Both the position numbers and the translations under genes were made by a program. The notes below the pieces were generated by a model. The model made no database searches, had not been told where the DNA came from, and saw only the letters and a list, made by a program, of their open reading frames with translations. A stretch of 64,000 nucleotides of DNA from Parcubacteria bacterium C7867-008 (GTDB lineage: Bacteria > Patescibacteriota > Minisyncoccia > Phycocordibacterales > Phycocordibacteraceae), in NCBI GenBank assembly GCA_001189215.1, contig LFCR01000006.1:67550-131549 (forward strand), written 5' to 3'. Below are positions 37,885 to 49,785 of the stretch, piece by piece (within the stretch, counting starts at the first letter, position 1; each line of letters starts with the position of its first letter).

Positions 37885-37894
37885 TCGCTAACTT

Positions 37895-37936
37895 TAGTCT
37901 ACAAACAGAAAACCCACCGACTAGATGGGTAATCCG
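37895..37936 (-). terminator. rho-independent terminator for the small minus-strand peptide gene
   Basis: cccacc...ggtggg hairpin followed on the minus strand by ttttctgttt. Confidence 0.5.
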
Positions 37937-37952
37937 TAGGTGGGTGATGTGC

Positions 37953-38099
37953 TCAGGTGAGCTTATCCATCTTCTTGAAGAACCAATCCAGGCCGAGGAG
38001 AGAGGCGAAGATCAGTCCATAGCTCCCAGCGAAGATTGCGATTTCAGCTGGTGTTGCACGCGACTGCTGGTTTGCGAGAACGAGGAGCCCGAAGATCAT
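37953..38099 (-). CDS. 48-aa hydrophobic peptide (MIFGLLVLANQQSRATPAEIAIFAGSYGLIFASLLGLDWFFKKMDKLT)
   Basis: Not in the ORF track (under 60 aa); GAAGGGA RBS, two predicted TM helices, own terminator. Preferred over the low-complexity + ORF 37944..38162. Confidence 0.35.
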   Translation of the reverse strand: MIFGLLVLANQQSRATPAEIAIFAGSYGLIFASLLGLDWFFKKMDKLT

Positions 38100-38180
38100 T
38101 TGTTTGTCCCTTCTGATCTGTCTAGCAATAATTTACTTCTATTATTGCAAATGTCAACTTGAGTAAAGCTTTAAATTTCG

Positions 38181-38218
38181 GTTCGAATATCGTCCCAGAC
38201 GGCCAGCAATTGACTTTT
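38181..38218 (+). repeat. island repeat, subfamily B, copy B2 (TTGACT -35; extended -10 TGcTATTTT at 38231..38239)
   Basis: gttcgaatatcgtcccagacggccagcaattgactttt. Confidence 0.8.
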
Positions 38219-38270
38219 AATACATAGTGTGCTATTTTAATTTCAGGAATCACAGCTCTGGGAGAAGGGT

Positions 38271-38573
38271 ATGGCTCAAGCGGAAGGCGGCGCAAAGCGT
38301 CAGCTGACGGTCCGTCTCAAACCGGCAAATCGTGCCGGACTGGACCAACTGGCAGAGCGAGGGAATGGCAACATCTCCGCGCTCGTCGATCAGGCGGTTG
38401 AGGAATTCCTCGCCCGTCGCTCAGGTACGCCGATTGCGGCACAAGGCCCGTTCGCCTTGGACAGCGCCGACATCGAACGTATCGCACCCGTCGTGAAGGC
38501 GATCGGGGCGCCCATTTCGCTCCAAGTCTTTACCGACATCATCGAGGCTCAACGGACACAGTCCAAAGCCTGA
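38271..38573 (+). CDS. ribbon-helix-helix (CopG/Arc/ParD-like) DNA-binding protein
   Basis: KRQLTVRLKPANRAGLDQLAERGNGNISALVDQAVEEFLARR fits an RHH N-terminal beta-strand plus two helices. Confidence 0.5.
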   Translation: MAQAEGGAKRQLTVRLKPANRAGLDQLAERGNGNISALVDQAVEEFLARRSGTPIAAQGPFALDSADIERIAPVVKAIGAPISLQVFTDIIEAQRTQSKA

Positions 38574-38575
38574 AT

Positions 38576-38628
38576 CAATCCACCATGCAGAAGGACAGAA
38601 GGTCCACTTGCGGGTGGATTTTCTGTTA
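38576..38628 (+). terminator. possible terminator (long-loop hairpin with U-tract)
   Basis: atccacc...ggtggat followed by tttctgtt. Confidence 0.3.
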
Positions 38629-38650
38629 TATGAGGCTATATCGCAAATTT

Positions 38651-38688
38651 GTTCGAATATCGTCCCAGACTGCCAGCAATTGACTTTT
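38651..38688 (+). repeat. island repeat, subfamily B, copy B3 (TTGACT -35; TATATT -10 at 38702..38707)
   Basis: gttcgaatatcgtcccagactgccagcaattgactttt. Confidence 0.8.
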
Positions 38689-38743
38689 TCATATTTGAAT
38701 ATATATTCACATCAGATTGAAACTCGAAAGCGAGGAATTCCTC

Positions 38744-39337
38744 ATGATTCGCAACCTGATACGGCCCAATGCCCACTTCGTGGTGGGTGAGCATGAAGGC
38801 CGAAAAGTCTTCACGCTCGGCAACATCCGGTTCCCATTACTGCCGGTCGAAACCGTTCTGGAGTCAGAACGCACCTTTGTGAACATCGACGTATTCCGCA
38901 GGGACGGTTCGAAGCTGTCGGGTATGATTCGGGTGTCTACGGATTTCCCGAATGGTGTCGCTGGCACGCCGCCGTATTTCGACATGTACGACATGAAGCT
39001 ACGGCGCGAGACCGAACTTCAGGCCGAGAGCTTCGAGGAAGGGGATCTGCTCTACCTGACGAATCTTCCGTTCAGGTTCGGGGAATCCCTTCTCAAGCAG
39101 CTCGGCGAGCAGGCTGACGTCTGCAGGGAATACATCGAGCGACACAAGCTATTGCTCGATGATGTCTTCCGAAGATGCGAAGCGATCAGGACTGATAACG
39201 GAGCTGAGCTCACGGACGATCAGACCAACATGATCTTCGGGCAGTTCTACCGATCGGTCGGCGAATTGTTTCAGGAGCTGAAAGAGCGCACCGACCTGCC
39301 CGAGCTGTTCGAGCTTCGGGAGACGGAACCGGCCTGA
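38744..39337 (+). CDS. hypothetical protein (island gene)
   Basis: Start at ATG 38744 with GAGGAA RBS; no recognisable domain. Confidence 0.45.
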   Translation: MIRNLIRPNAHFVVGEHEGRKVFTLGNIRFPLLPVETVLESERTFVNIDVFRRDGSKLSGMIRVSTDFPNGVAGTPPYFDMYDMKLRRETELQAESFEEGDLLYLTNLPFRFGESLLKQLGEQADVCREYIERHKLLLDDVFRRCEAIRTDNGAELTDDQTNMIFGQFYRSVGELFQELKERTDLPELFELRETEPA

Positions 39338-39358
39338 TCGCTCTTCACGAACCTTAAG

Positions 39359-39397
39359 AGACCCTGTCCAGATCTGATCTGGCAGGGTCTTTCTTTA
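39359..39397 (+). terminator. rho-independent terminator
   Basis: agaccctg-tccagatctgatctgg-cagggtct followed by ttcttt. Confidence 0.7.
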
Positions 39398-39402
39398 TAA
39401 AA

Positions 39403-39440
39403 GTTCCCACGTCGTACCAAACCCTCAGCAATTGACTTTT
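39403..39440 (+). repeat. island repeat, subfamily A, copy A5 (TTGACT -35; extended -10 TGTATTAT at 39452..39459)
   Basis: gttcccacgtcgtaccaaaccctcagcaattgactttt. Confidence 0.8.
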
Positions 39441-39533
39441 TATAATATAAGTGTATTATACATTTACTAACCATGTGGTTAGCTTTCAGACCCGGATGGG
39501 TTCAGAGAGACGGATGTCTCAGAAAGATCAAAC

Positions 39534-39956
39534 ATGTTCTCTAGAAAAGCAAAGAAGCCAGGCTCAAATCTTGAGCGAATCTTAAGTGAGTTTCCATGGC
39601 TTTGGGCAGTTCGCCAGCAGTGGGTAGAGCCCGAAGAAGGACATTTCCTTCACATTAGTGCTGGTGACGCCAATCTACATTTTCTCAAATTTGGGATCCT
39701 TGGACGAAGAGGATCCTTCAAGCAGGGGGGAGTCTGGATCGTCTCACGCTCGGGAAAGACGACCTCCATCGACCAGGTTAACGTCGTTGAATATCGTCAG
39801 TGGTTCACTGATCAGATGTTTGAGGCCCGTCCTGACGAAACCTTCCAGATCACCCATCTGGTGCTTGATAGCAGGGAGTGGAATCAGGTTCAGATATTCC
39901 GTATGCCACCCCAGTTCGATCCTGAACACGTCTCATGGTTTAGTGGAAACTACTGA
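39534..39956 (+). CDS. hypothetical protein (island gene)
   Basis: 140-aa ORF following a repeat with promoter; no domain recognised. Confidence 0.4.
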   Translation: MFSRKAKKPGSNLERILSEFPWLWAVRQQWVEPEEGHFLHISAGDANLHFLKFGILGRRGSFKQGGVWIVSRSGKTTSIDQVNVVEYRQWFTDQMFEARPDETFQITHLVLDSREWNQVQIFRMPPQFDPEHVSWFSGNY

Positions 39957-39971
39957 CCATACACGCATGTT

Positions 39972-40002
39972 GGCCGCCTCAATCCTGGGGCGGCCTTTTA
40001 AT
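39972..40002 (+). terminator. rho-independent terminator
   Basis: ggccgcc-tcaatcctggg-gcggcc followed by ttttaatt. Confidence 0.65.
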
Positions 40003-40013
40003 TACACAAATTT

Positions 40014-40039
40014 GTTCGAATATCGTCCCAGACGGCCAG
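40014..40039 (+). repeat. island repeat, subfamily B, copy B4 (truncated after gccag; marks the right edge of the island)
   Basis: gttcgaatatcgtcccagacggccag. Confidence 0.7.
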
Positions 40040-41197: not shown

Positions 41198-41605
41198 TTG
41201 ATGGAGAATTATTTGAGGTATAAGGAATATCGAAAGCCTACATGGGCTCCTCCTTCTTGGGTGTTCGCACCTGTATGGACGATTCTGTACCTACTGATCG
41301 GAATTTCTTTTGGGTATGTATTTTTCTTGTATCTTAACAAAACTCTTCCTTTCATCGTGCTACTCCCATTTCTTTTGAATTTGCTCTTCAATTTCTCCTA
41401 TACTCCTATACAGTTCCGATTACGAAATTTCTCCCTCGCACTTATAGATATAGTTCTTGTGGACATTACCCTAGTCTGGGCACTTTTGTCTGTACACACA
41501 CATGTACCTTGGGTTGTCTATATAAACCTTCCGTATCTCGCATGGGTGTTGTTTGCTACTGTTCTTCAGATTTCAGTAACCGTATTGAATAGCAAAAGAA
41601 GGTAA
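41198..41605 (+). CDS. tspO: TspO/MBR family tryptophan-rich sensory protein (paralogue 1)
   Basis: RKPTWAPPSWVFAPVWTILYLLIGIS and downstream LPYLAWVLFATVL match TspO conserved helices. Confidence 0.6.
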   Translation: MMENYLRYKEYRKPTWAPPSWVFAPVWTILYLLIGISFGYVFFLYLNKTLPFIVLLPFLLNLLFNFSYTPIQFRLRNFSLALIDIVLVDITLVWALLSVHTHVPWVVYINLPYLAWVLFATVLQISVTVLNSKRR

Positions 41606-41639
41606 TATCGTTAGGCTCTGGTGGTCTTGTACTCTCTAA

Positions 41640-42128
41640 TTACGTGTCGCTTTGCAACACACTAGAGAAAGCTTCCTTTGAGGCATTTGTTTCACTGAAG
41701 TCACCAAAACGAATCCACGTTGGAACGAGCTTGAAGAGTAATGGTTTTGCTGCATCCATGTGTGTTATCGGTGCTGATGGTTTTCCTTCAGGGAAGAGTC
41801 GTGAGGTGAGCTCAGAGAGCATCGGACCAAAGGTGGCCGTGTCTGTGATTTCTTCAAACACACCTTCGATCTGCAGCGTCTGATTCTTTTCAGTGTCGGT
41901 TACTACGAATGCTGCCTGAGGATGTGAATGCATATCACTCACCTTGCGTGTGTTTGCAAGAGTGAGGAGATATACAGATAGGGAATCATCGCATGAGTAA
42001 TAAAGCGTTCGAACGCGTGGAGTTCCTTCCGCAGATACTGTTGCAAGAGAGCCGCAGGAATGCGCTTTAAGAAAGGTCAAAGCATCAGATCTTTGCATTT
42101 GTGGTGTATTCATTGCATAAGTATACAC
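41640..42128 (-). CDS. pyridoxamine 5'-phosphate oxidase-like FMN-binding protein (paralogue 1)
   Basis: Split-barrel PNPOx-like pattern (GSLATVSAEGTPRVRTLYY...VYLLT); paralogous to 47100..47630. Confidence 0.55.
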   Translation of the reverse strand: MYTYAMNTPQMQRSDALTFLKAHSCGSLATVSAEGTPRVRTLYYSCDDSLSVYLLTLANTRKVSDMHSHPQAAFVVTDTEKNQTLQIEGVFEEITDTATFGPMLSELTSRLFPEGKPSAPITHMDAAKPLLFKLVPTWIRFGDFSETNASKEAFSSVLQSDT

Positions 42129-42218
42129 GCTGTAAGAATGTTCGATATCCTCTTAAATAACGAGCGAGGGCGGACAAGGTACCCTCCAATAGGTAAAGGT
42201 TGATGCTACCATTTCAAT

Positions 42219-42818
42219 ATGTTTGATCTGAGGATATATATAGTCATAGTTGCTTCTGTCCTGGCAGTCATTGGCAACGTCTCCTATCTTAGGGATGTCC
42301 TTACCGAGAAGGTAAAACCGCATCCGTACACCTGGTTTATATGGTCAATAGTGTCTATGACAACATTCTTCGGTGGACTCGCAAAAGGTGCGGGTATTGG
42401 AGTTATACCCACAGGTATCGCTGAATGCTTTACGATCATCATCTTCCTTCTCTCGCTCAAGTATGTATTTAAGGATCGTGCCCTGCATATTCGAGCCATC
42501 GATACGTACTTTCTTGTTGCTGCGTTGTTGGGGCTTATTCCGTGGTTCCTTACCAAGGACCCAACTATTTCTGTAGTCATTGTGGTTGTGATAGATATCA
42601 TTGCCTTCATTCCAACACTTCGAAAGACTTGGGAGCATCCTGAAACGGAGAAGCCGCTTCTCTATGGTATGAATGTCGGACGCCACGTACTCACTCTACT
42701 GTCCCTAAGTTCATACAATATCGCCACCACTATTCATTCGATTGCGATGATTGTTACGAATACGCTTATGGTGTTTTTCATTCGAAGAAAAGGGTTAAGA
42801 ATAACAGAGTCCACCTGA
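42219..42818 (+). CDS. hypothetical membrane protein
   Basis: 5-6 TM helices. Confidence 0.4.
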   Translation: MFDLRIYIVIVASVLAVIGNVSYLRDVLTEKVKPHPYTWFIWSIVSMTTFFGGLAKGAGIGVIPTGIAECFTIIIFLLSLKYVFKDRALHIRAIDTYFLVAALLGLIPWFLTKDPTISVVIVVVIDIIAFIPTLRKTWEHPETEKPLLYGMNVGRHVLTLLSLSSYNIATTIHSIAMIVTNTLMVFFIRRKGLRITEST

Positions 42819-42927
42819 AAGAAATATATTCACCTTAAACGGTGTACTAGATAGGGAATAGCATAGTGAAATATTTATAAAAATCTACCATTTAAACCCA
42901 TGAGCGATATCAGACTCATCTTTCTGC

Positions 42928-43539
42928 GTGGAGAGGGGTCTGCGCTACCTGCGCTACACTAGACCTATGCACGACCAAGTTTCAACAGACGAAGAGCTTG
43001 CAGCGCTCGTGCAGCGTGGTGATGTTGAACGATTCGGTATGCTTATGGTTCGGTATGAGCCAAAGTTGATGAGATACGGTTCACGCTTCCTTGCGCAAAC
43101 CGATGACATTCGAGAGATCGTTCAAGACGTCTTTATTAAGACGTACCAGGATATACAGTCCTTTGATACCACTCAAAGATTTTCACCGTGGATTTATCGC
43201 ATAGCGCATAATACGTTTGCAAATGAATTACGACGAAAGAGTCGTAACCCTATACGCCTTCCTGATTTCGACATATTACTAAGTCATTCTGCTGCGATAG
43301 AATCGTCTGATAGTGAAAGCGAACGGGCCAGTCTGGCTCGCATGGTAGAAAGAGGGTTGAATAGTATCTCACCTAAATATCGGGAAGTCCTGGTACTCTA
43401 TTTTATGGAAGAACTCTCCTATAAGGAGATAGCCGATGTTCTCCGAGTGCCCGTTAATACCGTTGGTGTGCGGCTTGCTCGAGCAAAATCGGCTCTTAAA
43501 GCTTCTTATACGGAGCGCAACATATCCTATGAACAATAA
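42928..43539 (+). CDS. ECF-family RNA polymerase sigma factor
   Basis: Sigma-70 region 2 (FSPWIYRIAHNTFANELRRKSR) and region 4 (YREVLVLYFMEELSYKEIADVLRVPVNTVGVRLARAK). Confidence 0.75.
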   Translation: MERGLRYLRYTRPMHDQVSTDEELAALVQRGDVERFGMLMVRYEPKLMRYGSRFLAQTDDIREIVQDVFIKTYQDIQSFDTTQRFSPWIYRIAHNTFANELRRKSRNPIRLPDFDILLSHSAAIESSDSESERASLARMVERGLNSISPKYREVLVLYFMEELSYKEIADVLRVPVNTVGVRLARAKSALKASYTERNISYEQ

Positions 43540-44251
43540 TTCACAACATGATCAGTTTCAGAACGAAGTCTTGGAACGTATTCGTTCTGGACAGCTTCAG
43601 ATGAAGCCACGGTTATTTTTTGTGCTCAAGTCAGTATGTATCATTTTGATTACAGTATTCATTCTCCTTATATCAGTGTGGCTCGTAAGTTTCATATCAT
43701 TTGGTCTCCGTCTTACCGGTAATGAGTCTTTGCTCGGTTTCGGAGCGAAAGGGTCACTTATCTTCCTAGTACTCTTCCCATGGTGGCTTGCGCTCCTGGA
43801 TCTTGGATTGGTCGCGTTGTTAGCGTGGCTGGTGCGTCGCTTTTCATTCGGATACCGAAGACCTCTCTTATATCTCTTAATAGCTTTGACAGTCTGTGGC
43901 GCAGCTTCAGGTCTCTTGTTCGATCGGGAGACGCGATTCCACGATGATCGTTTTGAAGAAGCTGAGGCCGGAGAATTATTCGGTCCTCTAGAGTCCTTAT
44001 ATGAGAGCGCTCATTTGAAAGCACCTGAAGAGCATGGTGTGTATCGTGGATTTGTTCTGGATATTGGTGAACGATCCTTCACACTCACTCATGATGATAA
44101 CGATAATGATGAAGATGACGGAGAATGGACGGTGCTACCGCCAACCAATTTCGATATGAAGATGATACGAATTGGGGATAGGGTATATGTTGCAGGGGAG
44201 CGTGAAGATCAAGAAATAGAGGCGTACGGTCTACGTATCCTAGACCGTTAG
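43529..44251 (+). CDS. putative anti-sigma factor or membrane protein co-transcribed with the ECF sigma
   Basis: Start overlaps the sigma-gene stop (ATGAACAATAA); two TM helices, then an acidic D/E-rich C-terminus. Confidence 0.45.
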   Translation: MNNNSQHDQFQNEVLERIRSGQLQMKPRLFFVLKSVCIILITVFILLISVWLVSFISFGLRLTGNESLLGFGAKGSLIFLVLFPWWLALLDLGLVALLAWLVRRFSFGYRRPLLYLLIALTVCGAASGLLFDRETRFHDDRFEEAEAGELFGPLESLYESAHLKAPEEHGVYRGFVLDIGERSFTLTHDDNDNDEDDGEWTVLPPTNFDMKMIRIGDRVYVAGEREDQEIEAYGLRILDR

Positions 44252-44291
44252 CAGAATGAAATAAAAGAGTGCTGTCAGGTGTACTACGAGT

Positions 44292-44486
44292 ATGTCTACA
44301 CAAACTCTTACCTACGCGCTGTATGTCTGTCTCGAATGCGGATGGATATATGACGAAACGCTCGGCATGCCTGAGCGCGGTATCCCACCAGGAACTAAAT
44401 GGGAGACTCTCCCTGATGATTTTAAATGTGGTGACTGTGATATTCAGAAGCGCGATACCCATATGTGGCAGAAACTTCCCGTATGA
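44292..44486 (+). CDS. rubredoxin
   Basis: YVCLECGWIYDE...PGTKWETLPDDFKCGDCD: two CxxC(G) knuckles with typical rubredoxin spacing. Confidence 0.7.
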   Translation: MSTQTLTYALYVCLECGWIYDETLGMPERGIPPGTKWETLPDDFKCGDCDIQKRDTHMWQKLPV

Positions 44487-44848
44487 AAAAGGATACCAAG
44501 ATATTTTTCTCCACCGTTTTGGGTATACCGTTATTTTTGAGTGCAGTATGGGGAGTACATGCCGCCGACGAAAGGAGTACTGTGGTCTTTCAACGTGATG
44601 AGACTATAGAAGTTACCCCTGAAATTCCTGAGCCAATCGAAGCACCTAAGCAGGTGGCTATCGCAACAGTGACCCCAAAAGCTCCTGTTCAAAAACCTAA
44701 GGCAGTAAAGGTTGCAGTGCAGCCTGTGGTAGTTCCACCGCCAGAAGTTGCACCTGTCGTTGCTGTGGTTATTGAGCCATCATCTCCGGAGCCAGCTCCT
44801 AAGAAGCCAGTCGCTGTGAAGAAGTCTCGTCGTACACGCGCAAGTTAA
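44465..44848 (+). CDS. secreted Pro/Val/Lys-rich hypothetical protein
   Basis: Signal peptide; low-complexity PVQKPKAVKVAVQPVVVPPPEVAPVV. Confidence 0.35.
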   Translation: MAETSRMKKDTKIFFSTVLGIPLFLSAVWGVHAADERSTVVFQRDETIEVTPEIPEPIEAPKQVAIATVTPKAPVQKPKAVKVAVQPVVVPPPEVAPVVAVVIEPSSPEPAPKKPVAVKKSRRTRAS

Positions 44849-44852
44849 TGCC

Positions 44853-45779
44853 ATGGAGGAATTCGACTATGAAAAGAGAGTGATGGGTTCAGAGGCTAGT
44901 ATCAGTATCGTTGCTGATGATCGTGCCACCTCTGATGTCCTTGCTAGAACTCTCTTTGAGATTGCGGAAAAAGAGGAGGCGCGGTTCTCACGATTCCGAA
45001 AAGACAGTGAGCTTTCACGGCTCAATAGTGAACGTGCAATTAAAGTTTCCGCAGAGTTCATGGATGCACTTCTGCTTGGGAGAGAGCTATACCGTAAATC
45101 TTCAGGGGTATTTAATCCGCTCGTTGATATATCACGTTTCGGATACGACGCAGATATAAGTGTAATAAAAGGTACGGAACGTACGGGCAATGATGGTGCA
45201 CCATACAACACAGACATGGAGGCTATCCATATTGACCAAGAGACCATGAGTGTTTCTCTTCAGGTAGGACAGAATCTCGATTTCGGTGGCTTCATAAAAG
45301 CGCACACCGCAGAGAAGATGGCGATGGCTGCATTAAATTGCCAAGGGGTTCTTGTGAATCTTGGGGGAGACATATATGCTCGTGGACTTGATGCAGAGGG
45401 TAAGCCTTTCGTCTTCATGGTGCAACACCCAACTGACCCAAACGTTGATCTCTCATTCATCGCGACTAATGTAGGAATCGCAACGAGTGGATCATATAAC
45501 CGTCACTGGAAGTATCGAGGTACTCCGTTCTTTCACATACTCGACAGCACAGGAAGTAAGAATCCAATAACCGAAATCCTATCAGCAACCATTATCTCCA
45601 GGACAGGAGCGGAAGCTGACGCATATGCGACCGCAGCTCTCGCCCTTGGTGCCGAGGCTGGTGGGGAATTCCTGACAGAGAATGGATGCGAGTACTGTTT
45701 CATCTTAACGGATGGGAGTTCTATATGTTCTCGTTCGTTCCCAATGATTCAACAATCTACTGTAAATTCTTATGCCTAG
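44853..45779 (+). CDS. apbE: FAD:protein FMN transferase (ApbE family)
   Basis: NLGGDIY and ATSGSYNRHWKYRGTPFFHILD resemble ApbE signature regions (TSG.YER...HHIIDP). Confidence 0.6.
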   Translation: MEEFDYEKRVMGSEASISIVADDRATSDVLARTLFEIAEKEEARFSRFRKDSELSRLNSERAIKVSAEFMDALLLGRELYRKSSGVFNPLVDISRFGYDADISVIKGTERTGNDGAPYNTDMEAIHIDQETMSVSLQVGQNLDFGGFIKAHTAEKMAMAALNCQGVLVNLGGDIYARGLDAEGKPFVFMVQHPTDPNVDLSFIATNVGIATSGSYNRHWKYRGTPFFHILDSTGSKNPITEILSATIISRTGAEADAYATAALALGAEAGGEFLTENGCEYCFILTDGSSICSRSFPMIQQSTVNSYA

Positions 45780-46398
45780 CAAAACCTTCTTCGCATTCAC
45801 CGCATCACTTCAAGAGTTATTGCTTGTAATAAGTATTGGAATACTGCTGATACTACCGGTAACTCTTGCATACATTCCTTCGTACCTGCCAACATGGTCA
45901 TACACGGCGCTATTCGGTGTCTCACTTTTTGCAGTATTTCTGGTACTAGCTATACGACCTCTCGCGGATTTACTACCGAACATCACATGGATTCGGCCAC
46001 TGGTGATCCTGCGTAAAGGGTTTGGTGTACTGTCTGCCTCCATAATCGTTGGAATAATGCTTTCAAAGTTTATGACTGACGGAGTCTACTATGCACTGGA
46101 TTTCTTTAGCCTAGAACATTGGTCCCTTCAGGGAGCTTCGATTCTTGCCCCTATAGGCGATCTATCGGCCCTCATACTTCTTGTGACATCAAATAAGTTC
46201 TCAAAGCGCGTGCTTGGTACGGATTGGAAACGAATCCAGAAGCTAGCGTACGTGTATTTCTATGCAGGCGCACTATACGAATATCTTCTGCTCGGCCAAA
46301 TTCTCGCGCTCATTGCAATGATTATTGTCACTATTTTAGTTCTCGCCGCGTATAGGAAGAATCATCCGGTATATAAACCAATCCTTCAATCGGTATGA
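45772..46398 (+). CDS. ferric-reductase-like transmembrane component (6 TM, putative heme-binding)
   Basis: 6 hydrophobic helices, overlaps the downstream FNR-like gene by 4 nt (split NOX/FRE-like arrangement); heme His ligands not verified. Confidence 0.4.
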   Translation: MPSKTFFAFTASLQELLLVISIGILLILPVTLAYIPSYLPTWSYTALFGVSLFAVFLVLAIRPLADLLPNITWIRPLVILRKGFGVLSASIIVGIMLSKFMTDGVYYALDFFSLEHWSLQGASILAPIGDLSALILLVTSNKFSKRVLGTDWKRIQKLAYVYFYAGALYEYLLLGQILALIAMIIVTILVLAAYRKNHPVYKPILQSV

Positions 46399-47096
46399 AT
46401 ATAAAACGTATGACCGCTCATATAGCTGCAGCGAATGATATCTCGCCCACGGCACGGGAAGTCGTCCTTGATTTGCCAGAACCGTTAAACTTTATACCTG
46501 GTGCGTTTGTAAATGTGTTTATGGAAATTGAAGGAGTCCGTGCGCGTCGTGCGTACTCGATTTCTTCAGATGAAACTATTCAGGACGTCATTACACTAAC
46601 TATACGTAAGGGAAGTCTTGGTGGTATGAGCGAACGCTTCTGGGATGAATCAATAACTGCAATTCCTGTTGAAATAATGGGACCGCTTGGGCTTAATACA
46701 TCTGACAAAATCTCAGGCACGAGAGTGTTTCTCTTTGGATTCGGCATAGGTGTTTCCGTGATAAAGGGATTACTACCGCATCTTCTTCGAAGGAAAAATC
46801 TCAAAGAGATAACAGTCATGATCGCAAGCAGGAATGAGGAGGAGGCTTTGTACAAGGAATTCTTTGAAGAGCAGCTAATACATAACCCTCATCTCAAACT
46901 GAAGATGGTCCTTTCACAGCCGTTTGATCCTAAGTACCCATATAAGGGACACCTACAAGATCATATTAATGGCTTAGATTTTACCGATGCATCGATATAC
47001 ATTTGTGGCTCAAAAGTTGCTACGGAATCTTTAAGAGATGCGATAGAGAATGAGGGTAAGAAAGTGGGTGAATTCTTTCTCGAAGCATTTGATTAA
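46395..47096 (+). CDS. FNR-like FAD/NAD(P)-binding oxidoreductase domain protein
   Basis: RRAYSISS (RxYS FAD-binding motif), GxGxxP-like NAD-binding region (FLFGFGIGVSVI). Confidence 0.55.
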   Translation: MNIKRMTAHIAAANDISPTAREVVLDLPEPLNFIPGAFVNVFMEIEGVRARRAYSISSDETIQDVITLTIRKGSLGGMSERFWDESITAIPVEIMGPLGLNTSDKISGTRVFLFGFGIGVSVIKGLLPHLLRRKNLKEITVMIASRNEEEALYKEFFEEQLIHNPHLKLKMVLSQPFDPKYPYKGHLQDHINGLDFTDASIYICGSKVATESLRDAIENEGKKVGEFFLEAFD

Positions 47097-47099
47097 TGA

Positions 47100-47630
47100 T
47101 TACGAATCCTCTGCGATTAGTTCGGAAAGTACATCACTCGTATGTTTTCCAGAAGTGAAATCACCCCAGCGGATCCATGTAGGTGTTATGCGGAACAGTT
47201 TCACCACAGCTGCATCAAAGTGAGTAAGGGGAGCCTGATATGTTGTATTAGATTGTAGTTGTCTAAATACAGACTGCACGGTCTCGTCTGAGACTGGAAT
47301 GTCAGAGACATCTTTTGCAATACCTTCGATCTCGACTGCTTGTGGTACGTTTTCGTTTGACACACTAAAAGCAACTTCTGCACGGTGTTTAATATCCTCG
47401 ACCTTACGTGTGCTTATAAGTGTGAGGAAATAGATAGAAAAATCCTCACCGCAGACGTAATAGACCATACGGGAGCGTGGAGTTCCGTCAGGTGAAAGTG
47501 TCGAAAGTACACCGGTATTGTTTGACTTCAGGAAAGAAAGGGCCGCGGCCTTTTTGGTGTTCGATGTATCCATGCCACAAGTATACTCCTTGGCACTAAT
47601 TCTGCGATATACTTTATGCAACCAGATCAC
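47100..47630 (-). CDS. pyridoxamine 5'-phosphate oxidase-like FMN-binding protein (paralogue 2)
   Basis: Alignable by eye to 41640..42128 (VLSTLSPDGTPRSRMVYY / FRITPTWIRWGDF). Confidence 0.55.
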   Translation of the reverse strand: MIWLHKVYRRISAKEYTCGMDTSNTKKAAALSFLKSNNTGVLSTLSPDGTPRSRMVYYVCGEDFSIYFLTLISTRKVEDIKHRAEVAFSVSNENVPQAVEIEGIAKDVSDIPVSDETVQSVFRQLQSNTTYQAPLTHFDAAVVKLFRITPTWIRWGDFTSGKHTSDVLSELIAEDS

Positions 47631-47655
47631 TGGCTAGTAAAGAACATCAGAAACT

Positions 47656-48135
47656 ATGGATAATGATACAAAACTAACGCGTTCGTTCACTGGATACGTT
47701 GCCACGCTCCTATTCTTCGGTGTTGGAGCGATAACTACGATCGGCATGGCATGGTACTCAAGCCTTAATCTTCCTTCTTGGACACCACCAGAACTGCTCG
47801 TTGCATTAATATGGTTCGTACTATTTGTTCTTACTGCCTGCTCTGTAGCGGTGTTTTGGGAGAGGTCTAAGAGAAGCGAACGATCTTTCGCTTGGATACT
47901 CAACCTATACATGGAAAATGCCATGCTCGTTCTCCTTTGGAACTACGTTTTCTTCGGTCTGCACAATCTAACTCTAGCCTTTGGCGTAGCGATCCTTATT
48001 GGTGTCATGGTACTGATTATTGTGATAAAGCTCTGGAAAGAAGTTCGCCTCGCCGCATTGCTACTCCTCCCATACTTACTATGGATGTTAGTTGCGCTGA
48101 TGCTTACCTATCAGATCATGATTCTAAATCCTTAA
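47656..48135 (+). CDS. tspO: TspO/MBR family protein (paralogue 2)
   Basis: LNLPSWTPP and LLLPYLLWMLVALMLTYQI conserved TspO helices. Confidence 0.6.
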   Translation: MDNDTKLTRSFTGYVATLLFFGVGAITTIGMAWYSSLNLPSWTPPELLVALIWFVLFVLTACSVAVFWERSKRSERSFAWILNLYMENAMLVLLWNYVFFGLHNLTLAFGVAILIGVMVLIIVIKLWKEVRLAALLLLPYLLWMLVALMLTYQIMILNP

Positions 48136-48145
48136 GACCTATCAT

Positions 48146-48553
48146 ATGAAGGGATTCGTAACGAACATAGAACAAGTTTCTTTGGAGAATGAAAACTTCA
48201 GGCAAGTTCTCTATACCGCGAGGAACTGCCAGCTTGTGCTGATGGCTCTACCAGCAGGCGAGGAGATCGGAGAGGAAGTACATGATGGCGACCAGTTCAT
48301 CCGTGTTGAAGAAGGGGAGGGTCAATCAATCCTGGATGGAGTAGAACGTGATCTTACTGATGGCTCAGTGGTGATTATTCCTGCCGGAGTACGGCACAAC
48401 ATTAAGAACACCTCGGTGAGTGATTCTTTAAAGCTCTACTCTATTTACGCTCCACCGCACCATAAAGATTGTGTGGTACATGCCACTAAGGAAGAAGCTG
48501 AGGCAGATGATGAGCACTACGATGGTCAGACTACAGATGACCTCGATCTATAG
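48146..48553 (+). CDS. cupin-domain protein (paralogue of 61602..61997)
   Basis: Cupin motif region (GEEIGEEVHDGDQFIRVEEGEG...VIIPAGVRHN); shares the N-terminus and core with 61602..61997. Confidence 0.55.
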   Translation: MKGFVTNIEQVSLENENFRQVLYTARNCQLVLMALPAGEEIGEEVHDGDQFIRVEEGEGQSILDGVERDLTDGSVVIIPAGVRHNIKNTSVSDSLKLYSIYAPPHHKDCVVHATKEEAEADDEHYDGQTTDDLDL

Positions 48554-48562
48554 TTCCCAGTC

Positions 48563-49039
48563 TTAGCCTTTTCGTGCTGCATCAATAGCAGCTATATCGA
48601 TCTTCTGCATGGTCATCATTGCTTTGAATGCGCGTTCTGCTTCTTCGCCACCAACGGCAAGTGCCTCGAGTAGAGTGCGTGGTGTAATCTGCCATGATAC
48701 TCCCCAGCGATCCTTACACCATCCGCAGTCACTCTCCTTACCACCATTTCCAACAATGGCGTTCCAATAGCGATCAGTCTCTTCCTGATCTTCTGTTGTG
48801 ATCTGGAATGAGAATGACTCACTTTGCGTAAAGATGGGGCCACCGTTAAGACCAACACAAGGAATTCCACAAACAGTAAATTCCACCGTTAATGCGTCAC
48901 CCTTTTCACCACCTGGAAATTCAGTTGGCGCATAAAAAACAGCCCCTACTTTGCTATCAGGGAAGGTTGCAGCATAAAAGTTTGCCGCATCTTCCGCGTC
49001 CTTATTAAACCAGAGGCAAATGGTGTTTTTAGGTATCAT
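48563..49039 (-). CDS. PhnB-like protein (3-demethylubiquinone-9 3-methyltransferase domain family)
   Basis: LWFNKDAEDAANFY...LTVEF...GLNGGP...CGWCKDRWGVSWQI conserved blocks of the pfam06983-like family. Confidence 0.55.
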   Translation of the reverse strand: MIPKNTICLWFNKDAEDAANFYAATFPDSKVGAVFYAPTEFPGGEKGDALTVEFTVCGIPCVGLNGGPIFTQSESFSFQITTEDQEETDRYWNAIVGNGGKESDCGWCKDRWGVSWQITPRTLLEALAVGGEEAERAFKAMMTMQKIDIAAIDAARKG

Positions 49040-49072
49040 ATTTTTTTATGTTCCTTTAAGTATATCAAATGT

Positions 49073-49091
49073 GTTTCCACGTCGTAGCAAA
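49073..49091 (+). repeat. distant partial copy (A6) of island subfamily-A repeat
   Basis: gtttccacgtcgtagcaaa versus consensus gttcccacgtcgtaccaaa. Confidence 0.4.
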
Positions 49092-49149
49092 TTTCTAGTC
49101 AATCTCGTCAGGGATAATAATGAGTGTTAAAAGTTGATACACTGTAAAT

Positions 49150-49785
49150 ATGAAGAGCACAAAGGCAGATCATATTGGGAAGGTGATAATAGTTACTGTA
49201 GTAGTGGCTTTCGGACTAGTATGGCTAGCCATGCGCGCAATACCACAAATAAAACAACCTGAAACGGTTACTACTATTGCCACCTCGACTTCAGCATCTA
49301 CAACAAGCAGTATCCGGATGACTGCTAAAACGAGTAATCGCTGGGAATCATTTGTGAAGCCATCTGATTCCGAACTCCGTACCATGCTTACACCACTGCA
49401 GTATCAGGTGACTCAAGAGCAAGGAACGGAAGAACCATTTACAAATGAGTATTTTGAGACTCATTCCTCAGGTATTTATGTGGATCGTGTTTCAGGAGAA
49501 CCTCTCTTTTCCTCAAACGATAAATATGATTCTGGTACAGGATGGCCTTCGTTTGTCCGGCCCATATCGAATGAGAGTGTGGTACTCAAGACCGATAGCA
49601 ATCTTTTGTTTCCTCGTACAGAAGTTCGATCACGTTACGCTGATTCGCATCTGGGACATGTCTTTGATGATGGGCCATCTGGTCGTGGAGGTAAGCGGTA
49701 CTGTATGAATTCTGCAGCACTGAAGTTTGTGCCAAAAGATGACATGGAAACAGAAGGATACGGACAGTATTTAACTAGCTTGTAG
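49150..49785 (+). CDS. msrB: membrane-anchored, likely extracytoplasmic peptide-methionine (R)-S-oxide reductase MsrB
   Basis: N-terminal TM anchor plus Ser/Thr linker; SelR domain with GTGWPSF and [11 protein letters not shown] motifs. Confidence 0.75.

What the first reader, a model, noticed from the sequence alone, without database searches (positions are those of the whole stretch)
41198..49785. Redox-stress cluster with duplicated TspO + PNPOx-like pairs, an ECF sigma/anti-sigma, rubredoxin, ApbE, split ferric-reductase/FNR and an anchored MsrB
Two divergent gene pairs with the same architecture occur 6 kb apart: 41198(+)/41640(-) and 47656(+)/47100(-). Each pair is a TspO/MBR membrane protein next to a split-barrel PNPOx-like FMN protein. 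TspO binds and photo-oxidatively degrades porphyrins. PNPOx-like proteins include heme-degrading and flavin-dependent reductases. Their repeated pairing suggests a conserved two-component functional unit.

Between the two pairs lie:
- an ECF sigma whose stop overlaps the start of a membrane anti-sigma-like gene;
- rubredoxin;
- an ApbE flavin transferase;
- a 6-TM ferric-reductase-like protein translationally coupled (4-nt overlap) to an FNR-like FAD/NAD domain, a split NOX/MsrQ-like electron conduit.

Just downstream is a membrane-anchored, apparently extracytoplasmic MsrB. Together this looks like an envelope electron-delivery and methionine-sulfoxide repair system with flavinylation (ApbE) that is not the proteobacterial MsrPQ design. 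A partial island-type repeat (A6) sits immediately upstream of msrB.
Basis: partly seen in the sequence, partly recalled or inferred. Interest (0 to 1): 0.5.

Follow-up and report, generated by a model that had tools for sequence, protein, structure and literature searches.

The report
Haem-free flavin electron module in CPR bacteria
The genes are real, but the "stress cluster" is really three unrelated neighbours, and its core is a previously undescribed operon, conserved across ultra-small CPR bacteria, that appears to move electrons with flavins instead of haem and includes a new small protein ending in a natural "flavin-tag".

Summary
The window is from Parcubacteria bacterium C7867-008, a Candidate Phyla Radiation (CPR) bacterium. 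All the gene calls hold. The "same architecture" claim does not: TspO/PNPOx pair 1 is convergent and pair 2 is divergent.

Comparison with about 100 related loci splits the region into three units.

1. **A conserved operon, 42928-47096.** It runs regulator, rubredoxin, X, ApbE, TM208, FNR.
   - ApbE lies upstream of TM208 in 59/61 loci, FNR downstream in 54/57, and rubredoxin nearby in 31/33.
   - ApbE has no signal peptide in any relative.
Its only conserved part is the C-terminal heptapeptide S-R-x-[S/T]-R-A-S, in register with the 7-residue ApbE flavinylation motif.
   - Fusions elsewhere link TM208 to ferredoxin/rubredoxin-FNR or FMN_red.
2. **A TspO/PNPOx-like/cupin neighbourhood.** It recurs in CPR, with TspO beside PNPOx in 7/17 loci.
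3. **A membrane-anchored MsrB.** It has its own promoter motif and is not linked to the module (2/16 loci).

Best reading: a haem-free MsrQ/Fre-like conduit with a flavinylated tether. How a cytoplasmic ApbE would modify an exported X is unexplained.

The parts
42219..42818 (+). TM199, a 199-aa polytopic membrane protein of unknown family. It accompanies the ECF-type version of the module.
   Evidence: No Pfam, NCBIfam or PDB match. An orthologue lies upstream of the ECF sigma gene in L010 (81% identity) and downstream of FNR in L024.
42900..42950 (+). Conserved stem-loop in the leader and start region of the ECF sigma gene.
   Evidence: RNAalifold on window, L010 and L024 gives 16 pairs, 4 of them with compensatory changes, at -21.6 kcal/mol. 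Only three sequences were available.
42928..43539 (+). ECF-type sigma factor, the first gene of the operon.
   Evidence: Sigma70_r2 (56.3 bits) and Sigma70_r4_2 (56.5 bits). Orthologues with the same partner gene occur in L008, L010 and L024.
43529..44251 (+). Anti-sigma-like membrane protein of 240 aa. Its start overlaps the sigma gene stop by 11 nt.
   Evidence: No Pfam or PDB match. It always lies next to the sigma gene in L008, L010 and L024, at 40-70% identity. The anti-sigma role is inferred from position only.
44292..44486 (+). Rubredoxin, the proposed one-electron carrier between FNR and the membrane protein.
   Evidence: Pfam Rubredoxin, 64.3 bits. It is present in 31/33 related loci with enough flank. 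In more distant relatives (P0277, P0282, P0300) it is fused between the membrane domain and the NAD-binding domain.
44483..44848 (+). Protein X: a small exported tether protein with a natural C-terminal 'flavin-tag-like' heptapeptide (KKSRRTRAS-COOH). It is the proposed ApbE substrate.
   Evidence: It has an N-terminal signal or anchor, a variable low-complexity spacer and an invariant tail. The tail reads S(29/33)-R(33/33)-x-[ST](33/33)-R(27/33)-A(33/33)-S(33/33)-COOH. In a database search 51/53 hits end in [ST]xA[ST]. X is a lipoprotein in L108. It is the only one of 223 window ORFs with such an ending. It has no Pfam or NCBIfam match.
44853..45779 (+). Leaderless (cytoplasmic-type) ApbE, an FAD:protein FMN transferase.
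   Evidence: Full-length Pfam ApbE match, 148.8 bits. It aligns with mature E. coli ApbE from residue 20 of the crystallised chain. A stop codon lies 12 codons upstream in frame. It has no hydrophobic segment (maximum Kyte-Doolittle 1.09). Orthologues all start M-x-E-[YF]-x-[YF].
45772..46398 (+). TM208: a six-helix STEAP/MsrQ-like membrane protein that retains the flavin pocket but has lost the haem ligands.
46395..47096 (+). Fre/FNR-like NAD(P)H flavoreductase of 233 aa, translationally coupled to TM208.
   Evidence: FAD_binding_6 and NAD_binding_1. [quoted passage not shown] It lies downstream of TM208 in 54/57 loci and is fused to TM208 in P0178 and similar proteins.
41198..41605 (+). Short four-helix TspO paralogue lacking TM1. 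It is a neighbour, not part of the module.
   Evidence: TspO_MBR, 97.5 bits, profile positions 24-143. Conserved 131-aa orthologues occur in L003 (61% identity) and L007.
41640..42128 (-). PNPOx-like split-barrel protein 1, convergent with the short TspO.
   Evidence: PNPOx_N, 53.3 bits. It is 37% identical to copy 2.
47100..47573 (-). PNPOx-like split-barrel protein 2, divergent from the long TspO.
   Evidence: PNPOx_N, 48.7 bits. All 48 homologues come from CPR or metagenomes. The nearest solved relatives are Rv2991, general stress protein 26 and Rv1155.
47656..48135 (+). Full-length five-helix TspO, followed 10 nt later by a cupin gene.
   Evidence: TspO_MBR, 96.2 bits, profile positions 3-144. 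TspO lies within about 1 kb of the PNPOx-like gene in 7/17 related loci.
48146..48553 (+). Cupin_2 protein, the third recurrent member of the TspO/PNPOx neighbourhood.
   Evidence: Cupin_2, 56.8 bits. Orthologues at 57-70% identity lie adjacent in L003, L007, L012 and L018. In L007 the order is PNPOx, cupin, long TspO, short TspO, all on one strand.
49073..49092 (+). Promoter-proximal 20-nt motif upstream of msrB, shared with nine sites at 34.4-40.0 kb.
   Evidence: Ten matches, all on the + strand, against 0.08 expected by chance (families D1-D4).
49150..49785 (+). Membrane-anchored MsrB of the single-cysteine, zinc-free type. It is an independent gene.
   Evidence: SelR, 158.7 bits. It has an N-terminal helix (Kyte-Doolittle 2.44) and a Ser/Thr linker. 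The orthologue in L013 is an anchored MsrA-MsrB fusion. It is not linked to the module in relatives.

Best explanation
Positions 42928-47096 form one operon: ECF sigma, anti-sigma-like protein, rubredoxin, X, ApbE, TM208, FNR. It encodes a redox module conserved across CPR/Patescibacteria.

**What is shown**
- The gene set is conserved. The regulator differs: most relatives use a divergently transcribed response regulator and histidine kinase, while this clade uses the ECF pair.
- TM208 is a STEAP/MsrQ-fold protein. It keeps the cytoplasmic flavin-pocket residues but has replaced both haem-ligand histidines.
- ApbE has no export signal.
- X is an exported or anchored protein. Its only conserved part is a C-terminal heptapeptide in register with the minimal ApbE motif.
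- In other lineages the TM208 domain is fused to ferredoxin-FNR, rubredoxin-FNR or FMN_red.

**What is inferred**
- NAD(P)H reduces the Fre-like FNR.
- Rubredoxin passes single electrons to a flavin held in the cytoplasmic pocket of TM208.
- ApbE attaches FMN to the terminal serine of X.
- This tethered FMN takes the place of the lost outer haem and/or carries electrons away from the membrane to an unknown extracytoplasmic acceptor.
- Expression responds to an envelope or oxidative signal through the adjacent regulator.

**Neighbours that are separate units**
- TspO, the PNPOx-like genes and the cupin form their own recurrent neighbourhood.
- The anchored MsrB is an independent gene.
For: **Module conservation**
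- ApbE lies upstream of TM208 in 59/61 loci and FNR downstream in 54/57. Rubredoxin is present in 31/33. The regulator is a two-component system in 28 loci and ECF in 3 (annotated examples).
- The same order as in the window is found in L010 and L024.

**TM208 fold and cofactor sites**
- Flavin site: hhalign pairs TM208 T139-S140, W152 and Q156 with MsrQ T134-S135, W147 and H151. R81 and K82 correspond to R77 and R78. All are invariant.
- Per PMC12525009 these are exactly the MsrQ FMN-site residues, and STEAP has R-K and Gln at the same places.
- Haem site: columns 95 and 169 are His/His in distant relatives that hit PF01794, but are I/F/T/N and Y/L/I throughout the TM208 clade. The spacings R81+14 and Q156+13 equal those of MsrQ (R77 to H91, H151 to H164).

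**Fusions**
- Fer4-FAD-NAD-TM208, FMN_red-TM208, TM-rubredoxin-NAD, and TM-Fer4-FAD-NAD.

**Protein X**
- The tail is invariant.
- X stays linked to ApbE and the TM208 fusion at greater evolutionary distance (L106: ApbE, X, Fer4-FNR-TM208).
- In L108, X carries a lipobox (LILVAC). The FMN_red-TM208 fusion there itself ends in SRHSQAS.
- In the haem-type sister system of L107, the gene in X's position is a lipoprotein with a canonical DTISGAS motif.
- No module protein has [ST]GA[ST].

**Literature**
- The minimal ApbE motif is 7 residues. It works best at a protein terminus. D to A has a minor effect and G to A leaves about 50% activity. Cytosolic ApbEs exist (PMC12052999).
- Unstructured C-terminal flavinylation sites are known on FMN_red proteins (PMC11334425).
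- Fre supplies electrons to MsrQ through its FMN (PMC12525009).
Against: - ApbE is leaderless while X appears to be exported. Flavinylation would have to occur before export, or the topology prediction for X is wrong (the N-flank charge of +1.4 against -0.6 is only moderate evidence).
- The X tail departs from the canonical motif at two of its five specified positions. Position -2 is Arg, never Gly. Position -6 is Ser, not Asp.
- No flavinylation, cofactor content or electron transfer has been measured.
- Without haem there is no demonstrated redox centre in the outer half of TM208, so transfer across the membrane is conjecture.
- The terminal acceptor is unknown.
- The TM208/MsrQ residue mapping rests on a weak pairwise profile alignment (hhalign probability 16%). 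It is corroborated by the hmmalign column pattern and by identical residue spacings.
Confidence: 0.5

Rival explanations
1. The module works entirely at the cytoplasmic face of the membrane, for example as a membrane-docked NAD(P)H:rubredoxin or flavin oxidoreductase for O2/ROS detoxification. ApbE tethers FMN to a cytoplasmic tail. TM208 is only a flavin-binding scaffold, and no electrons cross the membrane.
For: - ApbE is leaderless in all orthologues.
- FNR and rubredoxin are cytoplasmic.
- Both haem ligands are lost, so there is no obvious path across the bilayer.
- In the FMN_red-TM208 fusions the same tail (SRHSQAS, ARRSQAS) sits on the C-terminus of TM208 itself.
- That terminus must be cytoplasmic, because reductase domains are fused to either end of the domain in different lineages.
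Against: - X has an N-terminal signal or anchor with a positive N-flank.
- X has AXA-like cleavage sites in the window clade and a clear lipobox in L108.
- Its long Pro-rich or coiled-coil spacer (60-150 aa) is unnecessary for a tail that only shuttles between two cytoplasmic-face partners.
- The haem-type sister system pairs with an exported lipoprotein carrying a canonical motif.
Confidence: 0.22
2. One reading: the whole region is one envelope repair system. ApbE, TM208 and FNR deliver electrons to the anchored, extracytoplasmic MsrB, with TspO/PNPOx as accessory stress functions under the ECF sigma.
For: - All the genes lie within 8.6 kb.
- MsrB is predicted to be anchored outside the cell.
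- E. coli MsrQ serves Met-sulfoxide repair and is transcribed divergently from a two-component system (PMC12525009).
Against: - MsrB lies near the module in only 2/16 well-flanked loci, and those copies are cytoplasmic zinc-type MsrBs.
- msrB is separated from the operon by five genes on both strands. It has its own promoter motif, shared with genes at 34-40 kb.
- MsrB chemistry is thiol-based, and no precedent is known for reduction by a flavin or haem conduit.
- TspO and PNPOx occur with the module in 1-2 of 16 loci.
Confidence: 0.08
3. Flavin salvage or trafficking rather than electron transfer. In flavin-auxotrophic Parcubacteria the ApbE homologue acts like the Treponema Ftp enzyme (FAD pyrophosphatase / flavin trafficking). 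TM208 binds or transports flavin, and X serves as a flavin carrier.
For: - Parcubacteria lack riboflavin synthesis, ribK/ribF and any recognised riboflavin transporter, yet need FAD (PMC4508563).
- TM208 retains only a flavin site.
- Ftp-type ApbE enzymes are known (titles found).
Against: - The domain is repeatedly fused to NAD(P)H reductases and Fe-S or rubredoxin carriers.
- Its obligatory pairing with an FNR (54/57) points to redox chemistry.
- The STEAP/NOX fold has no known transporter members.
Confidence: 0.1
4. For the TspO/PNPOx part only: TspO (long and short forms), the PNPOx-like protein and the cupin form a tetrapyrrole-handling unit. It would bind, import or detoxify host-derived porphyrin or haem in an organism that has a haem-copper oxidase but no haem synthesis.
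For: - TspO lies within about 1 kb of the PNPOx homologue in 7/17 loci and the cupin in at least 4. L007 has all four genes on one strand.
- C7867-008 carries cytochrome bo3 oxidase genes (PMC4508563).
- TspO proteins bind porphyrins (established knowledge; PMC4926414 and PMC13185565, as listed).
Against: - Gene orientation is not conserved: convergent, divergent and co-directional arrangements all occur.
- The nearest solved PNPOx-like relatives are FMN/F420-type proteins of unknown function, not haem-degrading enzymes.
- No ligand evidence exists.
- The linkage was absent from 10/17 loci, although several of those are truncated.
Confidence: 0.3

Closest known systems
'MsrQ-like' flavinylation-associated electron-transfer system (Meheust et al. 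2021, eLife, PMC8238504)
   Same: An apbE gene is clustered with an MsrQ/ferric-reductase-type six-helix membrane protein and an NAD-binding (PF00175) reductase. The proposed path runs from NAD(P)H to an extracytosolic flavinylated protein.
   Different: - That system is defined by a PF01794 hit with two haem sites, an FMN_bind-domain protein and an exported ApbE, and is mostly actinobacterial.
- Here TM208 misses PF01794 and both haem ligands.
- ApbE is leaderless.
- There is no FMN_bind domain. A disordered tether protein carries a 7-residue C-terminal tail instead.
- Rubredoxin is a constant member.
- The lineage is CPR, which that survey found 'strikingly underrepresented'.
E. coli MsrQ + Fre (two-component NOX-like system) and the hprRS/msrPQ locus
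   Same: - A membrane FRD protein with a cytoplasmic FMN pocket (R77, R78, S135, W147, H151) is fed by a 233-aa NAD(P)H-flavin reductase (PMC12525009).
- TM208 keeps those positions, and the FNR is collinear with Fre.
- The locus shows the same layout, with a two-component system transcribed divergently.
   Different: - There is no MsrP partner.
- MsrQ has a haem b on H91/H164, whereas TM208 has I95/Y169.
- The E. coli reductase is unlinked, whereas here it is translationally coupled.
- ApbE, rubredoxin and X have no counterpart in E. coli msrPQ.
STEAP metalloreductases (eukaryotic FRD subgroup)
   Different: STEAPs keep one outer haem on two histidines and carry an F420H2:NADP+-oxidoreductase-like N-terminal domain. 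TM208 has no haem ligands and uses a separate FNR plus rubredoxin.
Engineered 'flavin-tag', and the natural C-terminal flavinylation extensions of FMN_red proteins
   Same: - A 7-residue ApbE recognition peptide placed at a protein terminus is efficiently flavinylated (PMC12052999).
- ApbE-associated FMN_red proteins carry flavinylation sites on an unstructured C-terminal extension (PMC11334425).
- The X tail has the same length, the same register and the same terminal position.
   Different: - Canonical motif: D-x-x-[ST]-G-A-[ST]. X tail: S-R-x-[ST]-R-A-S.
- The modified residue would be the very last residue of the protein.
- The carrier has no flavin-binding fold at all.
Surface-anchored Msr systems of Gram-positive bacteria (pneumococcal MsrAB2 with CcdA/Etrx) and Neisseria PilB. 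These are recalled from general knowledge and were not retrieved here.
   Same: An MsrB domain is held outside the cytoplasmic membrane by an N-terminal anchor. A relative (L013) has an anchored MsrA-MsrB fusion.
   Different: No CcdA or thioredoxin-like partner lies next to msrB here. A DsbD_2/DsbB/DsbA set lies about 20 kb away in an integrated island.

Membership tests
MsrQ-like flavinylation system (Meheust 2021 operational definition) | A PF01794 (Ferric_reduct) protein encoded in an apbE/FMN_bind gene cluster. | tested here: not met
   No PF01794 hit for the window protein. Only 1 of 30 family members reaches E = 0.71. The homology is only remote.
MsrQ-like flavinylation system (Meheust 2021 operational definition) | An FMN-binding-domain substrate with a signal peptide, and an extracytosolic ApbE. 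| tested here: not met
   No FMN_bind domain and no [ST]GA[ST] in any module protein. ApbE is leaderless.
MsrQ-like flavinylation system (Meheust 2021 operational definition) | An NAD-binding domain (PF00175) fused to or adjacent to the membrane protein. | tested here: met
   The FNR gene overlaps TM208 by 4 nt. It is present in 54/57 loci and is fused in P0178 and similar proteins.
Ferric-reductase-domain (FRD) superfamily, STEAP/MsrQ subgroup | The six-transmembrane-helix FRD fold. | tested here: met
Ferric-reductase-domain (FRD) superfamily, STEAP/MsrQ subgroup | Bis-histidine ligation of haem b (MsrQ H91 on TM3 and H164 on TM5). | tested here: not met
   I95 and Y169 occupy these columns in the window protein, and no invariant His exists in the family. 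Distant relatives that hit PF01794 have His at both columns.
Ferric-reductase-domain (FRD) superfamily, STEAP/MsrQ subgroup | Cytoplasmic flavin pocket: R-(R/K) after TM2, a Ser in the T-S motif, Trp, and His/Gln at the start of TM5. | tested here: met
   R81, K82, S140, W152 and Q156 are invariant across the clade and its relatives. Residue roles are taken from PMC12525009. Flavin binding itself was not tested.
ApbE FAD:protein FMN transferase | A full-length ApbE domain with conserved core motifs. | tested here: met
   PF02424, 148.8 bits, profile positions 1-266 of 266. It aligns with E. coli ApbE, and the GGD, TSGSY, H-[IV]-[LI]-D and EADA-x-x-T segments are conserved.
ApbE FAD:protein FMN transferase | An N-terminal lipoprotein or secretion signal, typical of the periplasmic enzymes. 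| tested here: not met
   The domain starts at residue 11 and a stop codon lies upstream in frame. A cytosolic ApbE class is known from Klebsiella (PMC12052999).
ApbE FAD:protein FMN transferase | Mg2+-dependent FMN transfer to Ser/Thr. | not testable with these tools
   This needs biochemistry.
ApbE flavinylation motif D-x-x-[ST]-G-A-[ST], applied to the protein X tail | [ST] at position 0, Ala at -1 and [ST] at -3. | tested here: met
   S 33/33, A 33/33 and S/T 33/33. 51/53 further homologues also fit.
ApbE flavinylation motif D-x-x-[ST]-G-A-[ST], applied to the protein X tail | Gly at -2 and Asp at -6. | tested here: not met
   Position -2 is R in 27/33 and never G. Position -6 is S in 29/33. 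Published mutagenesis reports D to A as minor and G to A as about 50%. G to R has not been tested anywhere I could find.
TspO/MBR | A PF03073 match spanning five transmembrane helices. | tested here: inconclusive
   TspO-2 is full-length (profile 3-144 of 145). TspO-1 covers profile 24-143 only and lacks TM1, but is conserved as a 131-135-aa form in L003 and L007.
MsrB (SelR) | A SelR domain with the catalytic Cys; two zinc-binding CxxC pairs; a resolving Cys. | tested here: inconclusive
   The domain (158.7 bits) and the RYCMNS catalytic Cys are present. Both CxxC pairs and the resolving Cys are absent from the sequence. It is therefore a zinc-free, single-Cys subtype.
ECF sigma / anti-sigma pair | Sigma regions 2 and 4, plus a cognate anti-sigma with a recognisable anti-sigma domain. 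| tested here: inconclusive
   Sigma regions are met. The partner has no known anti-sigma domain. It is co-conserved and overlaps the sigma gene in four genomes.

The most novel reading that the evidence does not exclude
CPR bacteria, which make neither haem nor flavins, have rebuilt the STEAP/MsrQ transmembrane electron wire using flavins only.

- A cytoplasmic ApbE tags the very last serine of a small disordered pre-protein (X) with FMN before the protein is threaded through Sec.
- Outside the cell, the tethered FMN docks into the pocket vacated by the outer haem of TM208.
- There it is reduced by the inner flavin, which is fed by NAD(P)H, then FNR, then rubredoxin.
- The FMN then swings out on its 60-150-residue Pro-rich or coiled-coil stalk to reduce an acceptor in the wall or on the host cell surface.

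This would be a new class of ApbE substrate (a natural C-terminal flavin-tag). It would also be a 'modify, then export' route that avoids exporting FAD, and the first haem-free member of the ferric-reductase-domain family that still transfers electrons across a membrane.
Probability: 0.22. Interest if true: 0.85.

Novelty: new variant of a known kind. Interest (0 to 1): 0.68.

Why it matters
**Scope of protein flavinylation**
- The main published survey of protein flavinylation reported CPR bacteria as nearly devoid of extracytosolic flavinylation. That survey required signal peptides and FMN_bind domains.
- The module described here would have been invisible to it, yet it occurs in many CPR lineages (Paceibacterota, Nomurabacteria, Campbellbacteria and others).

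**What would follow if X is flavinylated**
- The substrate range of ApbE would extend to a bare C-terminal peptide on a disordered protein.
- This would be a natural precedent for the engineered flavin-tag.

**What would follow if TM208 is active without haem**
- The STEAP/NOX/MsrQ scaffold could then work with flavins alone.

**Relevance to CPR physiology**
- It bears on how organisms lacking haem, quinone and flavin synthesis handle redox balance or oxygen.
- It may also bear on how episymbionts exchange electrons with their surroundings.

**Testability**
- Both central claims can be tested with simple co-expression and cofactor assays.

**Secondary point**
- The TspO/PNPOx-like/cupin neighbourhood and the conserved four-helix TspO give a new genomic handle on the still unclear bacterial role of TspO.

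Tried and rejected
**Searches that gave nothing useful**
- Pfam on TM208 and 29 homologues gave no meaningful hit.
- A profile search of PDB sequences with the TM208 alignment gave only a spurious UbiX match at E = 0.5.
- Pfam, NCBIfam and PDB searches on TM199, the anti-sigma-like protein and X found nothing.
- Consensus promoter and terminator scans of 41-50 kb were uninformative: fewer sigma-70-like sites than in shuffled sequence, and no convincing terminators between operon genes.
- Literature searches for ApbE + Patescibacteria, CPR + rubredoxin + ApbE, and TspO + PNPOx returned no paper describing either association. The Nelson & Stegen genome paper does not mention these genes.

**Ideas tested and rejected**
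- *X and ApbE as one frameshifted, membrane-anchored ApbE.* Rejected. The two genes are separate in all relatives, on opposite strands in most, and ApbE's frame has a stop 12 codons upstream.
- *Canonical [ST]GA[ST] motifs elsewhere in the window.* Three hits were found (37275-37805, 52908-53651, 60873-61571). That is about the number expected by chance, one is a Rossmann-fold glycine loop, and none was followed further.
- *TspO-1 as a pseudogene.* Rejected, because the short form is conserved elsewhere.
- *An alternative genetic code for the window.* Rejected, because the ORFs are intact under table 11. One distant locus, L107, does read TGA as sense.

Full report
**Origin and gene content**

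The window matches JGI metagenome contig 3300001199 J055_10000296. Its proteins are deposited as 'Parcubacteria bacterium C7867-008'. This is a Candidate Phyla Radiation (CPR) organism from oxic Hanford groundwater (PMC4508563).

- two TspO_MBR proteins and two PNPOx_N proteins;
- an ECF-type sigma, a rubredoxin and a full-length ApbE;
- an FAD_binding_6/NAD_binding_1 reductase;
- a SelR/MsrB preceded by a hydrophobic helix and a Ser/Thr linker.

The reported gene overlaps are real.

Three corrections are needed.
- **The two TspO/PNPOx pairs are not alike.** The first is convergent and the second divergent. TspO-1 is a four-helix form lacking TM1 (profile positions 24-143, 25% identical to TspO-2). 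The JGI gene caller missed it. It is not a pseudogene, because 131-aa orthologues exist in L003 and L007.
- **The 'ferric-reductase-like' protein (here TM208) has no Pfam match**.

**What is conserved together**

I collected 17 genome loci through the PNPOx-like protein. I collected 80 metagenome loci through TM208, plus annotated contigs. I then mapped all window proteins onto them.

The TM208 neighbourhood is extremely constant:
- ApbE lies immediately upstream in 59/61 loci with enough flank.
- The FNR lies immediately downstream in 54/57.
- A rubredoxin lies within 4.2 kb in 31/33, followed by a small ORF.

In 28 loci a response regulator, histidine kinase, rubredoxin and small ORF are transcribed divergently from ApbE-TM208-FNR. 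In the window's own clade (window, L010, L024) the two-component system is replaced by the ECF sigma and anti-sigma-like pair, and everything is co-directional.

The other genes of the finding are rare near the module. In the 16 loci with at least 6 kb on both sides, MsrB occurs in 2, TspO in 1, PNPOx in 2 and cupin in 3. The MsrBs found there are cytoplasmic zinc-type enzymes.

msrB in the window also has its own promoter-proximal 20-nt motif. It shares this with nine sites at 34.4-40.0 kb (10 matches against 0.08 expected).

The 8.6-kb region is therefore three juxtaposed units, not one system.

**The membrane protein**

TM208 belongs to a family of at least 464 clusters, none with a Pfam domain. 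A 30-sequence alignment has no invariant histidine, and the window protein has only two His, neither in a helix core.

The fold is nevertheless clear:
- The AlphaFold2 model has pLDDT 88.9.
- NCBIfam's MsrQ model aligns collinearly at E = 0.004.

A 2025 study of E. coli MsrQ (PMC12525009) assigns the haem to H91 and H164. It assigns the cytoplasmic FMN pocket to R77, R78, S135, W147 and H151. It notes that STEAP has Arg-Lys and Gln at the corresponding places.

hhalign pairs TM208 T139-S140, W152 and Q156 with MsrQ T134-S135, W147 and H151. R81 and K82 match R77 and R78.

Aligning distant relatives to the family profile gives three results:
- These five positions are invariant throughout.
- Columns 95 and 169 lie 14 residues after R81 and 13 after Q156. 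These are exactly the MsrQ spacings.
- Those two columns are His/His in relatives that still hit PF01794. They are I/F/T/N and Y/L/I in the whole TM208 clade, and I95 and Y169 in the window.

TM208 is thus a STEAP/MsrQ-type protein that kept its flavin site and lost its haem site. This is plausible in a lineage without haem synthesis. Cofactor content is inferred, not measured.

**Redox partners**

The FNR is the size of Fre and collinear with it (residues 5-232 against 3-230 of 233). Fre is the enzyme that feeds MsrQ in E. coli.

A profile search of 1.8 billion representatives found 292 relatives. Many are fusions:
- ferredoxin-FAD-NAD-TM208;
- FMN_red-TM208;
- TM-rubredoxin-NAD;
- TM-ferredoxin-FAD-NAD;
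- TM-ferredoxin.

Reductase domains are found on either end of the membrane domain, so both termini must be cytoplasmic, as in the FRD topology. A rubredoxin or ferredoxin sits between the reductase and the membrane domain. This gives the module's stand-alone rubredoxin a role as the one-electron link.

**Protein X**

The ORF downstream of rubredoxin has a short basic N-terminus and a hydrophobic segment. The mean flank charge is +1.4 on the N side and -0.6 on the C side.

Its middle part is unalignable and low in complexity. It is Pro/Val-rich in the window clade and Ala/Gln/Glu-rich elsewhere, with total lengths of 90-191 aa.

The C-terminus is invariant: S(29/33)-R(33/33)-x-[S/T](33/33)-R(27/33)-A(33/33)-S(33/33), then the stop codon.

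Further evidence on X:
- A database search with an alignment of X sequences returned 53 unnamed CPR proteins. Of these, 51 end in [ST]xA[ST], and the other two in ...RVS and ...RTS.
- Of 223 window ORFs, only X has such an ending.
- X stays with the module at greater distance. L106 reads ApbE, X (tail TRSRAS), ferredoxin-FNR-TM208.
- L108 reads X, leaderless ApbE, FMN_red-TM208. There X is a 90-aa lipoprotein with lipobox LILVAC and tail SRYSEAS. The fusion protein itself ends in SRHSQAS, and a second such fusion ends in ARRSQAS.
- In L107, a haem-type sister system in an organism that reads TGA as sense, the gene in X's position is a lipoprotein with a canonical DTISGAS motif.

According to the 2025 ApbE review (PMC12052999):
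- The minimal recognition motif is seven residues, D-x-x-[S/T]-G-A-[S/T], with FMN on the last residue.
- Such a tag works best at a protein terminus.
- D to A has little effect, and G to A leaves about half the activity.

C-terminal unstructured flavinylation sites are also known on FMN_red proteins (PMC11334425). The X tail has the same length and register, with Ser for Asp and Arg for Gly.

No other module protein has even the four-residue core motif: 0 of 60 ApbE, 77 TM208, 51 FNR, 37 rubredoxin, 35 kinase and 37 regulator sequences. X is therefore the only candidate ApbE substrate in the operon. This is an inference from motif similarity, linkage and positional equivalence, and nothing has been shown biochemically.

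**The unresolved point**

ApbE is leaderless in the window: the domain starts at residue 11, a stop lies upstream in frame, and there is no hydrophobic segment. The same holds in about 45 orthologues. X, by contrast, looks exported.

Three readings remain open:
- FMN is attached in the cytoplasm to the unfolded tail of this very short pre-protein before Sec export. This would avoid having to export FAD.
- The relevant tails are cytoplasmic, as on the FMN_red-TM208 fusions, and the system works at the inner face of the membrane.
- The topology prediction is wrong.

I rank the transmembrane model first because of four observations: the lipobox, the wall-spanning type of spacer, the sister system's exported canonical substrate, and the conserved residues on the outer face of TM208 (W117, D130, Y169). 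I cannot exclude the cytoplasmic-face model.

**TspO, PNPOx-like and cupin genes**

Among 17 loci found through the PNPOx-like protein, TspO lies within about 1 kb in 7 (L003, L007, L010, L014, L015, L016, L018). A highly similar cupin (57-70% identity) is adjacent in at least 4. Several negative loci are cut by contig ends.

Orientation varies. L007 has PNPOx, cupin, long TspO and short TspO on one strand.

The nearest solved PNPOx-like relatives are Rv2991, general stress protein 26 and Rv1155, not haem-degrading enzymes. The cupin resembles BH2720 and TcmJ-like proteins.

The association is real, and I found no description of it in the searchable literature. A role in tetrapyrrole handling is plausible for an organism with a bo3 oxidase and no haem synthesis, but it is untested.

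**Comparison with known systems, and verdict**

The closest described system is the 'MsrQ-like' flavinylation cluster of Meheust et al.. The window fails three of its defining features: a PF01794 hit with haem sites, an FMN_bind substrate, and an exported ApbE. It adds two constant members, rubredoxin and X.

It works like E. coli MsrQ/Fre and like STEAP at the flavin site, but lacks their haem.

I classify it as a new variant of a known kind.
- The existence of the module and its redox nature are well supported, at about 0.9.
- X as the ApbE substrate stands at about 0.55.
- The full transmembrane mechanism stands at about 0.4.

Noticed in passing
window 34440-40033 and 49073-49092: A 20-nt motif, GTTCSMAYRTCGTMCCARAC, occurs in two sequence variants. 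It looks like two half-sites (GTnCCnA) spaced 11 bp apart. It occurs 10 times, always on the + strand in intergenic DNA, about 9 nt upstream of a TTGACT -35-like box. Nine copies precede small hypothetical genes at 34-40 kb and one precedes msrB. It looks like the binding site of an OmpR/PhoB-type activator defining a small regulon.
   Followed up: partly
window 20141-31309: A probable integrated element. A large serine recombinase gene (20200-21813, minus strand) abuts and overlaps the 3' end of tRNA-Gln (20141-20212). It is followed by hypothetical genes, a CsoR-like repressor, a Cu-type P-ATPase (25477-27771), an HMA+DsbD_2 protein, a cupredoxin, DsbB (29201-29770), a DsbA-like thioredoxin (29783-30433) and a cation-efflux protein. 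This would be a copper-resistance and disulfide-bond island in a CPR genome.
   Followed up: no
window 24451-24566: A LOOT RNA (Rfam RF03000) scores 70 bits against a gathering score of 46.4. It lies inside the putative island, just upstream of a tRNA_anti-like OB-fold protein gene (24553-25095).
   Followed up: no
window 42900-42950; L010 and L024 equivalents: A conserved hairpin overlaps the ribosome-binding and start region of the ECF sigma gene. It has 4 compensatory base-pair changes among three sequences, which suggests translational control of the sigma factor.
   Followed up: partly
window 41198-41605; L003 4535-4930; L007 11354-11749: A conserved 131-135-aa TspO subfamily lacks transmembrane helix 1 and begins at the LP1 loop. 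In L007 it directly follows a full-length TspO, which hints at a long/short hetero-oligomer.
   Followed up: partly
TM208 homologues P0049-P0168 (window 45772-46398): The cytoplasmic C-termini of stand-alone TM208 proteins often end in Q-[T/S/A/P]-[V/I]-COOH, for example QTV, QTI and QSV (QSV in the window). This could be a docking peptide for a partner such as FNR or ApbE.
   Followed up: no
L107 (Logan SRR22387864 contig): A related locus is only readable if TGA is a sense codon (code 4 or 25). It carries a haem-type TM-rubredoxin-FNR fusion next to a lipoprotein with a canonical DTISGAS flavinylation motif that Pfam's models do not recognise.
   Followed up: partly
L102 (E. coli K-12 2036000-2044000): E. 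coli msrPQ is transcribed divergently from the two-component system hprRS. This is the same layout as the response regulator and kinase opposite ApbE-TM208-FNR in most CPR loci.
   Followed up: no
window 60873-61571 (minus strand): A 232-aa membrane-anchored protein of unknown family has a canonical-core SSGAT sequence eight residues from its C-terminus. The number of such hits in the window is what chance predicts, so it was not pursued. It is nevertheless another possible ApbE target.
   Followed up: no
L013 17882-19063: The closest MsrB orthologue in a related genome is a membrane-anchored MsrA-MsrB fusion. It has the same zinc-free, single-Cys MsrB domain, so surface Met-sulfoxide repair seems to be a CPR trait independent of the ApbE module.
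   Followed up: partly
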